Source: Escherichia coli O127:H6 str. E2348/69 (lineage in GTDB: Bacteria; Pseudomonadota; Gammaproteobacteria; Enterobacterales; Enterobacteriaceae). Taken from it: a stretch of 64,000 nucleotides of DNA. Below, piece after piece: positions 44,236-44,657 of the stretch. The notes beneath the pieces are model-generated. The model was given only the letters and a program-made list of their open reading frames with translations. It searched no databases and was not told the DNA's origin. Every line of letters begins with the position of its first letter. Within the stretch, counting starts at the first letter, position 1. Made by a program: the position numbers and the translations under genes. The stretch lies in assembly GCF_000026545.1 (NCBI RefSeq), contig NC_011601.1, one strand, 5' to 3'.

Positions 44236-44436
44236 TTAACTCTCGTTCAGCACACTAAACATCGCGTCACACATCCCCTTAATCGCCTGTTTAACCTGAT
44301 AAAGTTCCCTGCGCAGTTCCTGTACTTCGTTGTTATCCGCAAGCAGGATCAGACAACCTTTCGAGATCTTCACGGTAACGCCCGTGCCGATCTCAAATCC
44401 CGCTTCTCTCAGCCATTTGGCGCTGATTTTGAGCAC
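44236..44436 (-). CDS. SymE-like (AbrB-fold) toxin-family ORF, short form
   Basis: 66-aa ORF; KWLREAGFEIGTGVTVKISKGCLIL resembles SymE core. Confidence 0.5.
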   Translation of the reverse strand: MLKISAKWLREAGFEIGTGVTVKISKGCLILLADNNEVQELRRELYQVKQAIKGMCDAMFSVLNES

Positions 44437-44450
44437 TGGCGCGTGATGCA

Positions 44451-44657
44451 GTGGGCCAGCTCATGGCAAAGGAGACAGCAGATAGCCGTACGGAATATGT
44501 CTATGATGCGGCAGACCTGCTACTGGAAATCCGCTGCAGATGGTCGTATGCCCGGGAAACGGACGCACCGGAGATTATCTGCTTCAGTTACGACAGACTG
44601 GGACAGTTGCTGACCGAGGAGACGGTGCAAAAATTCAAAATTATCCATTTAACCTAA
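44451..44657 (+). pseudogene. orphan rhs core fragment
   Basis: 68-aa ORF with Rhs-like EYVYDAADLL...YDRLGQLLTEE repeat sequence. Confidence 0.45.

What the first reader, a model, noticed from the sequence alone, without database searches (positions are those of the whole stretch)
44236..44657. SymE-like toxin-family ORF and orphan rhs fragment downstream of the Rhs module
A 66-aa minus-strand ORF contains KWLREAGFEIGTGVTVKISKGCLIL, resembling the AbrB-fold core of the SOS-induced toxin SymE, but lacks about 35 N-terminal residues. It lies immediately beside a 68-codon rhs-like fragment on the opposite strand. This suggests either a truncated SymE-family gene captured in an Rhs orphan array or a short SymE-like variant. 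SymE genes are normally controlled by an antisense RNA overlapping their 5' end, which here would overlap the rhs fragment.
Basis: partly seen in the sequence, partly recalled or inferred. Interest (0 to 1): 0.45.

Follow-up and report, generated by a model that had tools for sequence, protein, structure and literature searches.

The report
Truncated SymE gene remnant beside Rhs fragment
This is the decayed back two-thirds of a SymE-family toxin gene joined head-on to a leftover piece of an Rhs toxin gene, a recombination scar in E. coli E2348/69 that is already annotated and is ordinary.

Summary
Window 44236-44436 (-) is a 66-codon ORF that passes Pfam's SymE_toxin threshold. Window 44436-44629 (+) is a mid-core Rhs/YD-repeat fragment.

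The window is the E. coli E2348/69 ansP-pptA (rhsE) region. RefSeq already names the ORF "SymE family type I addiction module toxin" (WP_000913065.1).

The ORF is a 5'-truncated remnant, not a short variant:
- It matches only profile positions 23-52 of 54.
- It lacks the 31 N-terminal residues that are nearly invariant in its closest full-length relatives (97 aa, 89% identical).
- Its "GTG start" is the ancestral Val codon.
- It has no Shine-Dalgarno sequence, no promoter-like site, no LexA box and no SymR-like region.

Strain SC434 carries an 80-aa form fused to Rhs core DNA. Relative to it, E2348/69 has lost a further ~140 bp across the junction. The allele at this site in S10/no107 has a TGG->TGA nonsense codon, and K-12 has nothing here.

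Opposite-strand, mostly truncated SymE sequences recur in Rhs orphan arrays across Enterobacterales. Intact copies sit beside HTH-primase-integrase genes. Kawano et al. 2007 had already drawn both the SymE-RHS and the cHTH-SymE-primase/helicase neighbourhoods.

The weak Rfam isrA and Ssr1 hits reflect this shared SymE DNA, not an sRNA here. Interest is low.

The parts
41567..43916 (+). Degenerate Rhs module upstream (context). It comprises a VgrG fragment (41567-42622), two frameshifted Rhs core pieces (42561-43088 and 43052-43606, the latter with the core end), and a C-terminal ORF of unknown family (43599-43916).
   Evidence: Pfam Phage_GPD E=3.6e-86, RHS_repeat and RHS. TIGR03696 Rhs_assc_core 102 bits. 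RefSeq marks both the VgrG and the Rhs genes as incomplete or frameshifted pseudogenes.
43928..44206 (+). 92-aa immunity-like ORF of the last Rhs C-terminal toxin cassette (RefSeq WP_001026259.1, hypothetical protein).
   Evidence: It has no Pfam or NCBIfam family. Homologues at 72-88% identity lie inside Rhs orphan arrays of other Enterobacterales. One UniRef name for a homologue is 'MafI family immunity protein'.
44194..44229 (.). Bidirectional intrinsic terminator hairpin between the convergent immunity gene and the SymE remnant. It marks the left edge of the conserved SymE block.
   Evidence: Folding gives -18.8 kcal/mol on the + strand (z -4.45) and -20.6 kcal/mol on the - strand (z -4.66), with T-runs on both sides. 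The hairpin is conserved next to SymE in L002 and L004. Hairpin plus SymE 3' end are all that remain in O157:H7-type genomes.
44236..44436 (-). 5'-truncated SymE-family gene remnant (66 codons plus stop; RefSeq WP_000913065.1).
   Evidence: Pfam SymE_toxin 35.6 bits over profile positions 23-52 of 54. It is 89% identical to the 97-aa full-length form but lacks that form's residues 1-31. The GTG is the ancestral Val codon. There is no Shine-Dalgarno sequence, no promoter-like site and no LexA box.
44437..44445 (.). Deletion junction. About 137-141 bp present in strain SC434 are missing here: SymE codons for residues ~1-14 of the 80-aa form plus the start of the Rhs core fragment.
   Evidence: Alignments A1 and A3. 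Blast breakpoints are window 44439 = L002 6336 and window 44436 = L002 6474. The two flanks in SC434 are imperfectly similar (TCACCGG...GTGGG), which suggests a short-homology deletion.
44436..44629 (+). Orphan mid-core Rhs fragment with no start, no core end, no toxin domain and no immunity gene. The mechanical ORF 44451-44657 runs out of Rhs homology into pptA-side sequence.
   Evidence: 88-89% nucleotide identity to the Rhs core in L004 (6850-7043 of the main gene, and 9370-9563 of an orphan), which is nucleotides 2940-3133 of that gene (about residues 980-1045). RHS_repeat and YD_repeat_2x hits. RefSeq pseudogene 'incomplete; missing N-terminus and C-terminus'.
44630..44960 (+). Unrelated flank leading to pptA (which starts at 44961), with a promoter-like site at 44704-44733.
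   Evidence: Rhs homology ends at 44629. Promoter scan. Only the last 90 bp before pptA are shared with K-12.

Best explanation
The 66-codon ORF is an inactive 5'-truncated remnant of a SymE-family gene. It is joined head to head to a dead mid-core Rhs fragment, at the distal end of a degenerate VgrG-Rhs-toxin-immunity locus between ansP and pptA in E. coli E2348/69.

Shown:
- The SymE copy belongs to the 97-aa lineage. It is 91.6% identical in nucleotides to the no107 full-length copy, against 80% to the 109-aa lineage.
- In that lineage, intact copies sit downstream of an HTH gene and next to a DnaG-type primase and a tyrosine integrase, directly after an Rhs toxin/immunity cassette.
- In strains SC434 and APEC 102026, the gene is cut at about codon 18-23 and fused to Rhs core nucleotide 2847, giving an 80-aa ORF.
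- E2348/69 has lost a further ~140 bp across that junction. This removes the remaining N-terminal codons and leaves an internal Val GTG as the first possible start.

Inferred:
- The junction was made by illegitimate or short-homology recombination during Rhs cassette turnover (C-terminal displacement and orphan formation). The piece is now carried passively.
- The product, if made at all, lacks the N-terminal part of the MazE/AbrB-like domain. By alignment to K-12 SymE's TVSY, that part includes beta-strand 1 with the invariant aromatic residue, which Kawano et al. describe as critical for dimerisation. The product should therefore not work as a SymE-type protein.
- The DNA may still serve as a homology patch for recombination between Rhs loci.
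For: Identity and annotation:
- The window is 100% identical to E2348/69. RefSeq calls the ORF a SymE family toxin and the neighbour an incomplete pseudogene.

Truncation:
- Pfam coverage is positions 23-52 of 54, against 1-52 for the 97-aa form and 13-52 for the 80-aa form.
- Alignments A2 and A4 show a nearly invariant N-terminus, including Y23, which is absent here.
- The short forms in the databases (56-86 aa) have heterogeneous N-termini that look like fusion products or alternative start calls.

Junctions:
- Rhs homology starts exactly at the 80-aa ORF's start in L004 (9276|9277).
- The deletion relative to SC434 is mapped.

No expression signals:
- No promoter-like site on either strand within 44236-44657.
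- No Shine-Dalgarno sequence upstream of the GTG.
- No LexA box.
- No symR match. The conserved 5' UTR and N-terminal region of Salmonella and E. coli full-length copies is absent from the window.

Decay at the same chromosomal site:
- The S10/no107 allele has TGG->TGA and is present at >=99% identity in 90 genomes.
- K-12 lacks any SymE sequence here.

Generality:
- Opposite-strand SymE sequences next to Rhs core fragments occur in E. coli, Salmonella, relatives labelled only Enterobacteriaceae, Providencia, Kosakonia, Entomohabitans, Superficieibacter and Citrobacter.
- Copies inspected directly have no start codon.
Against: - The reading frame is still open for 66 codons.
- The Pfam score is above the gathering threshold.
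- The exact protein is on record in 636 blocks of the assembly collection, always in this context. This fits clonal inheritance, but it does not exclude selection.
- Pairwise dN/dS on the shared 64 codons is below 1: 0.16 against SC434 and 0.46 against the full-length form. These rest on only 3-10 substitutions per class, some of which may predate truncation, so the test is inconclusive.
- Absence of consensus promoter or Shine-Dalgarno matches does not prove absence of expression. No transcript or ribosome-profiling data were available.
- The AlphaFold model of the full-length form was too poor (pLDDT 61) to confirm the role of the N-terminus.
Confidence: 0.85

Rival explanations
1. A functional short SymE-like protein. 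The 66-aa product would start at the GTG, fold through its helix, two strands and C-terminal helix, and act as a toxin or as a modulator of other SymE-family proteins.
For: - Open frame and Pfam score above threshold.
- The identical protein is kept in many assemblies.
- dN/dS is below 1 in small samples.
- RefSeq annotates it as a protein, not a pseudogene.
Against: - It lacks the 31 N-terminal residues that are nearly invariant in full-length relatives, including invariant Y23. By alignment to K-12 SymE's TVSY this lies in beta-strand 1, whose aromatic residue Kawano et al. call critical for dimerisation (PMC1891008).
- The start is an internal Val codon exposed by a deletion.
- There is no Shine-Dalgarno sequence and no promoter-like site.
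- Sister alleles at the same site carry a nonsense codon.
- Only 14 complete genomes have the E2348-type configuration of this locus.
Confidence: 0.05
2. The segment works at the RNA level. A + strand transcript antisense to the SymE remnant (IsrA-like or Ssr1-like) would be made and would regulate something.
For: - Rfam isrA matches 44366-44451 (+) at 31.6 bits, and Ssr1 matches 44058-44500 (+) at 175 bits.
- In Salmonella, IsrA is a detected 423-nt RNA, cis-antisense to the 5' end of STM0294.1n, with inverse expression (PMC2330248).
- isrA matches above threshold lie antisense to full-length or longer SymE copies (117.6 bits in L004; 122.3 and 98.6 bits in L007).
Against: - Both window hits are far below the gathering scores (51 and 820).
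- The Ssr1 model is simply the whole 654-bp predicted intergenic region of S. flexneri. The RNA seen there was ~150 nt, with its 5' end at model position ~131. That lies upstream of the part that matches the window well (the hairpin plus SymE antisense, from about model position 350) (PMC4782007; alignment).
- The isrA model covers the antisense of SymE codons ~24-66, so matches follow protein-coding conservation.
- The window segment folds no better than shuffles (z 0.17).
- There is no promoter-like site, and a strong terminator sits just upstream on the + strand.
Confidence: 0.06
3. The remnant is retained as recombination substrate. The conserved hairpin plus SymE block would be the downstream homology arm, and the Rhs core the upstream arm, for exchanging toxin/immunity cassettes between Rhs loci and strains.
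For: - The block is conserved at ~90-95% identity next to unrelated toxin/immunity cassettes.
- There are up to 8 copies per genome.
- A ~550-bp hairpin-SymE'-spacer-Rhs-core-end unit is repeated within Kosakonia L036 and shared with Entomohabitans L040 at 87% identity.
Against: This is purely inferential. Passive hitch-hiking explains the same pattern. It is compatible with, not exclusive of, the best explanation.
Confidence: 0.3

Closest known systems
E. coli K-12 SymE/SymR (type I toxin-antitoxin; Kawano et al. 2007, PMC1891008). SymE was later re-characterised as a DNA-binding, nucleoid-condensing protein (Thompson et al. 2022, as summarised in PMC11894785).
   Same: The core is homologous: KWLREAGF..GTGVTVKI..GC motifs, Pfam SymE_toxin, and 41% identity over 51 aa by tblastn.
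   Different: - It is not an orthologue: NCBIfam equivalog scores 34.7 bits against a cut-off of 132.
- It lacks the N-terminal third of the protein.
- It has no SymR, no LexA boxes and no start signals.
- It lies in an Rhs locus rather than the K-12 symE locus.
SymE-family neighbourhoods described by Kawano et al. 2007 (Fig. 7): cHTH-SymE-primase/helicase islands, and SymE next to haemagglutinin/RHS genes.
   Same: The closest full-length relatives (97 and 109 aa) have exactly this context: HTH upstream, a DnaG-type primase, a tyrosine integrase, and an Rhs toxin/immunity cassette on the other side.
   Different: The window copy has lost the HTH, primase, integrase and its own 5' end. Only hairpin plus codons 32-97 remain.
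Salmonella IsrA / STM0294.1n (Padalon-Brauch et al. 2008, PMC2330248; Rfam RF01385).
   Same: The isrA model matches the strand antisense to SymE-family coding sequence. It scores above threshold on Salmonella and E. coli 109-aa copies, and weakly here.
   Different: The window match is sub-threshold and covers only the part of the model that survives the truncation. I could not verify from the LT2 sequence that STM0294.1n is a SymE-family gene.
Rhs orphan toxin/immunity modules (Poole et al. 2011, PMC3150448; Koskiniemi et al. 2014, PMC3967940).
   Same: It is an Rhs core fragment lacking its N-terminus and translation signals, lying downstream of the main rhs region.
   Different: A typical orphan keeps the core end, a C-terminal toxin domain and an immunity gene. 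This fragment is mid-core only (about residues 980-1045) and ends in unrelated DNA.
Shigella flexneri Ssr1 (Wang et al. 2016, PMC4782007; Rfam RF02627).
   Same: The Rfam model region lies next to an Rhs-family gene (SF0268). It contains a SymE-type sequence and the same hairpin.
   Different: The match is to the SymE/hairpin part of a 654-bp model, not to the ~150-nt RNA that was detected. The score of 175 is far below the gathering score of 820.

Membership tests
SymE family (Pfam PF08845 SymE_toxin) | Significant match to the family HMM above the gathering score | tested here: met
   E=1e-8, 35.6 bits against gathering 29.
SymE family (Pfam PF08845 SymE_toxin) | Complete MazE/AbrB-like domain, including the N-terminal strand with the conserved aromatic residue | tested here: not met
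   Only profile positions 23-52 of 54 are matched. Residues 1-31 of the 97-aa form, including invariant Y23, are absent.
SymE family (Pfam PF08845 SymE_toxin) | Predicted AbrB-type fold of the full-length relative | tested here: inconclusive
   The AlphaFold2 model of the 97-aa form has mean pLDDT 61.3 and an unmodelled N-terminus. No solved relative was found by sequence.
Orthologue of K-12 endoribonuclease SymE (NCBIfam NF010128 equivalog) | Score at or above the curated cut-off (132 bits) | tested here: not met
   34.7 bits for the window ORF. The full-length relatives also reach only 46.7-50.3 bits.
symE/symR type I toxin-antitoxin system | Cis-antisense SymR RNA overlapping the 5' UTR and start codon | tested here: not met
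   There is no symR match in 43900-44800 at E<=10. A SymR-like match (47.6 bits, gathering 61) exists at the start of a Salmonella relative, but that region has no homologue in the window.
symE/symR type I toxin-antitoxin system | LexA (SOS) boxes in the promoter | tested here: not met
   No CTGT-N8-ACAG match with up to 1 mismatch between 43529 and 45685.
symE/symR type I toxin-antitoxin system | Toxicity of the protein on expression | not testable with these tools
   This needs an induction experiment.
Rhs orphan toxin/immunity module | Rhs core-derived sequence lacking the N-terminus | tested here: met
   RHS_repeat 25.8 bits and YD_repeat_2x 24.7 bits. 88-89% nucleotide identity to the Rhs core.
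Rhs orphan toxin/immunity module | Core end (PxxxxDPxGL region) followed by a C-terminal toxin domain and an immunity gene | tested here: not met
   Rhs homology ends mid-core at 44629. The next gene is pptA.
IsrA sRNA (Rfam RF01385) | Score at or above the gathering score (51 bits) | tested here: not met
   31.6 bits, with large internal gaps. The segment folds no better than shuffles.
Ssr1 sRNA (Rfam RF02627) | Score at or above the gathering score (820 bits) | tested here: not met
   175.2 bits. The good match is confined to the hairpin plus SymE-antisense part of the model.

The most novel reading that the evidence does not exclude
The window's remnant may be one decayed copy of a conserved linker: hairpin, then an opposite-strand SymE gene, then a spacer, then an Rhs core end. 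This linker punctuates Rhs orphan arrays throughout Enterobacterales. Its intact form is part of an HTH-SymE-primase-tyrosine-integrase mobile element.

That element may be the vehicle that brings new Rhs toxin/immunity cassettes into rhs loci. If so, it would give a concrete mechanism for Rhs 'C-terminal displacement' and orphan-array growth. SymE (with SymR/IsrA-type antisense RNA or the HTH) would act as the element's addiction or regulatory module.

I found no paper describing this beyond the neighbourhood cartoon in Kawano et al. 2007.
Probability: 0.3. Interest if true: 0.55.

Novelty: already known. Interest (0 to 1): 0.15.

Why it matters
For the window itself it matters little. It is a pseudogene-like scar that RefSeq over-annotates as an intact "type I addiction module toxin". 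The practical lesson is that such short SymE calls next to Rhs genes should be read as remnants, and that Rfam isrA/Ssr1 matches there reflect shared SymE DNA.

The wider pattern could matter more. SymE remnants mark cassette boundaries in Rhs arrays, and intact copies are tied to a primase-integrase element. If this were worked out, it could explain how Rhs toxin/immunity cassettes are acquired and stacked.

Tried and rejected
- LexA-box search: nothing near the locus.
- Sigma-70 promoter scan: nothing within 44236-44657 on either strand. The only sites are pptA-side. The scan also missed the real hairpin terminator, which folding confirmed.
- Rfam symR: no match in the window.
- AlphaFold2 of the 97-aa relative with a 29-sequence alignment: low confidence (pLDDT 61.3). 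I did not use it for fold search.
- PDB sequence search: no relative found.
- dN/dS on six copies: too few substitutions to decide.
- Context look-up for the abundant 83-aa form P0018: not on record.
- DNA-pattern scan of genome contigs, meant to recover S. Typhimurium LT2 and confirm that STM0294.1n is a SymE gene: 26 loci, 16 of them chance hits outside the Enterobacterales. LT2 was not among them, although 10 enterobacterial loci were useful.
- The idea that the integrase element inserts into the 5' end of SymE (which would explain recurrent truncation at residues 8-12): the spacer upstream of truncated copies (L040 5620-5786) is not found next to the integrase in no107, so this is not supported.
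- tblastn appeared to extend SymE similarity into 44437-44505 ('IPYGYL' against 'CTVGYL'). I judged this a chance extension through the antisense of a YD repeat.
- K-12 yncO, a small minus-strand gene after ydcD: it is not SymE-related.

Full report
**What is there**

The ORF list shows a 66-aa ORF at 44236-44436 on the minus strand with a GTG start. It contains KWLREAGFEIGTGVTVKISKGCLIL. A 68-aa ORF lies at 44451-44657 on the plus strand.

- The 66-aa ORF hits Pfam SymE_toxin at E=1e-8 and 35.6 bits, above the gathering score of 29. The match covers only profile positions 23-52 of 54.
- The 68-aa ORF hits RHS_repeat at 25.8 bits against a gathering score of 22. It also hits NCBIfam YD_repeat_2x at 24.7 bits against a cut-off of 15.8.

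**Where it is**

The 1,061 bp around the finding are 100% identical to E. coli E2348/69 (EPEC O127:H6), in the interval between ansP and pptA. This is the rhsE locus of K-12.

RefSeq already annotates the features as follows:
- The ORF is WP_000913065.1, "SymE family type I addiction module toxin".
- The rhs piece is an incomplete pseudogene.
- The upstream VgrG and Rhs genes are incomplete or frameshifted pseudogenes.

The whole locus is degenerate.

**Truncated gene or short variant**

The closest full-length relative is a 97-aa protein in E. coli no107. It is 89% identical in protein and 91.6% in nucleotides. Its Pfam match covers profile positions 1-52.

An alignment of 29 full-length family members shows a nearly invariant N-terminus, MAEHDITPEVTISKTQRRxxVGY. 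Y23 is invariant, and it aligns with the Tyr of K-12 SymE's TVSY. [quoted passage not shown] Equating Y23 with that residue is my inference from the alignment. The window ORF lacks residues 1-31 entirely.

The databases hold many short forms of 56-86 aa, at 84-97% identity to the C-terminal two-thirds. Their N-termini are heterogeneous and unrelated to each other (MLPAQH..., MPVVLSAQH..., MMTGNPPAF..., MIKIS...). This is what independent truncations, fusions and alternative start calls would produce. It is not what a conserved short isoform would look like.

**How the truncation arose**

In strain SC434 (same chromosomal site) and in the rhsC locus of APEC 102026, the SymE ORF is 80 aa. It diverges from the 97-aa form upstream of LPNRSDTP. 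Rhs core homology begins at the very next base after its start codon, at nucleotide 2847 of a 4.3-kb rhs gene.

E2348/69 has lost a further ~137-141 bp spanning that junction. The loss lies between two imperfectly similar stretches. The GTG that the ORF finder uses is the Val codon of ancestral ...TPVIKISAKWL. A T->G change turned the following Ile into Leu.

Around this start there is:
- no Shine-Dalgarno-like sequence upstream of the GTG;
- no promoter-like site on either strand within 44236-44657;
- no LexA box within more than 700 bp.

**The rhs fragment**

Window 44436-44629 is 88-89% identical to nucleotides 2940-3133 of an Rhs core gene, about residues 980-1045. It has no start, no core end, no toxin domain and no immunity gene. 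The ORF's last ten codons run into pptA-side DNA. It is a dead core fragment, not a functional orphan module.

**Other strains**

- K-12 has no SymE sequence between rhsE and pptA. Only the last 90 bp before pptA are shared.
- Of 5,426 complete E. coli genomes, 433 have some match to the 1,061-bp query.
- Fourteen match at >=99% identity and carry the E2348-type configuration. Three have the SC434-type.
- The S10/no107 allele at the same site has TGG->TGA at the conserved Trp and a different deletion of the rhs piece. It is present at >=99% identity in 90 genomes.
- The exact 66-aa protein is recorded in 636 blocks of the assembly collection, always in this context. This fits clonal inheritance.
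- Pairwise dN/dS values of 0.16-0.66 rest on a handful of substitutions and decide nothing.

**Antisense RNA**

Rfam gives two sub-threshold matches on the strand antisense to the remnant: isrA at 31.6 bits (gathering 51) and Ssr1 at 175 bits (gathering 820).

- The Ssr1 model is the whole 654-bp predicted intergenic region next to an Rhs-family gene in S. flexneri. The RNA actually detected there was ~150 nt, with its 5' end at model position ~131 (PMC4782007). The window matches well only from about model position 350 onward, which is the hairpin plus the SymE antisense.
- The isrA model matches, above threshold, the antisense of codons ~24-66 of 109-aa SymE copies in E. coli and Salmonella. 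IsrA was reported as cis-antisense to the 5' end of STM0294.1n, with inverse expression (PMC2330248).
- In a Salmonella relative, a SymR-like match (47.6 bits, gathering 61) overlaps the SymE start codon.

Antisense control is therefore plausible for intact family members. However, the 5' UTR and start region is absent from the window. The isrA-like segment folds no better than shuffles (z 0.17). A strong bidirectional terminator at 44194-44229 (z about -4.5 on both strands) sits just upstream on the plus strand.

**Wider context**

In E. coli no107 and in Salmonella the order is as follows:
1. VgrG, DcrB-like protein, Rhs.
2. Immunity gene.
3. Intact SymE and HTH, both on the opposite strand.
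4. DnaG-type primase, then tyrosine integrase.
5. A short Rhs core end, followed by another toxin/immunity pair and another SymE.

The SymE-primase-integrase-spacer-core-end block is conserved between the two genera at about 73-88% nucleotide identity (77-80% over its long stretches). The toxin/immunity genes between blocks are unrelated.

SymE sequences lie on the strand opposite to adjacent Rhs core fragments in loci from Citrobacter, Superficieibacter, Kosakonia, Entomohabitans, Escherichia sp., Providencia and relatives labelled only Enterobacteriaceae. Copies inspected directly begin at residue 8-12 with no start codon. One junction type is shared between Kosakonia and Entomohabitans.

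Kawano et al. 2007 had already drawn the cHTH-SymE-primase/helicase and SymE-RHS neighbourhoods. I found no paper that takes this further.

**Verdict**

The finding is a correctly observed and correctly guessed truncated SymE-family remnant, fused to a dead Rhs core fragment. It is already annotated and is a by-product of Rhs cassette turnover.

- It is a (partial) member of the SymE family by sequence.
- It fails the tests for an intact domain, for orthology with K-12 SymE, and for a symE/symR-type system.
- Confidence in the remnant reading is about 0.85, and interest is low.
- The most novel reading left open is that such remnants mark the footprints of a primase-integrase element that delivers Rhs cassettes.

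Noticed in passing
L005/L006 (E. coli no107, NZ_CP075374.1 2588370-2624000); L007-L009 (Salmonella enterica): Intact SymE genes (97 or 109 aa) lie in a conserved block: SymE and HTH on one strand, then a ~940-989-aa DnaG-type primase and a tyrosine integrase on the other, then a spacer and a short Rhs core end. The block is wedged between unrelated Rhs toxin/immunity cassettes. It is conserved between the two genera at about 73-88% nucleotide identity (77-80% over its long stretches). In no107 the block occurs twice, with the first 3.4 kb (core end, toxin domain, immunity, SymE, HTH and the start of the primase) 96.5% identical between copies. It may be a mobile element that carries or recruits Rhs cassettes.
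   Followed up: partly
L017-L023, L031, L033, L036, L038, L040-L042: Rhs orphan arrays in many Enterobacterales genera carry SymE sequences on the opposite strand next to Rhs core fragments. Copies inspected (L018, L040) start at residue 8-12 with no start codon. The same junction, and a ~550-bp hairpin-SymE'-spacer-core-end unit, are shared between Kosakonia and Entomohabitans (87% identity).
   Followed up: partly
L007 7565-7638 (-) and 7704-7832 (-): A Salmonella 109-aa SymE gene that has an HTH gene upstream also has two antisense Rfam matches: a SymR-like match over its start codon (47.6 bits, gathering 61) and an isrA match over codons 24-67 (122 bits). Rfam isrA therefore looks like a model of the antisense strand of SymE-family coding sequence.
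   Followed up: partly
window 40463-40993 (+) and 41007-41345 (+): Just upstream of the VgrG fragment lies a 176-aa ORF with an HEMMH (HExxH-type) motif and no Pfam or NCBIfam family. It is followed by a 112-aa ORF that weakly matches 'putative T6SS immunity periplasmic lipoprotein' (NF045617, 29.8 bits, cut-off 43). This is possibly an uncharacterised metallopeptidase effector/immunity pair.
   Followed up: partly
window 41567-43916: The VgrG gene stops at 351 aa and runs straight into frameshifted Rhs core pieces, as if a large internal deletion had fused vgrG to the last ~350 codons of rhs. The C-terminal ORF (43599-43916) has no known toxin family.
   Followed up: no
window 44058-44500; Rfam RF02627: The Rfam Ssr1 model is the entire 654-bp predicted intergenic region from S. 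flexneri. It includes a SymE-type sequence and a terminator hairpin, so it gives strong-looking E-values (1e-49) on any Rhs-linked SymE remnant while staying far below its gathering score.
   Followed up: yes
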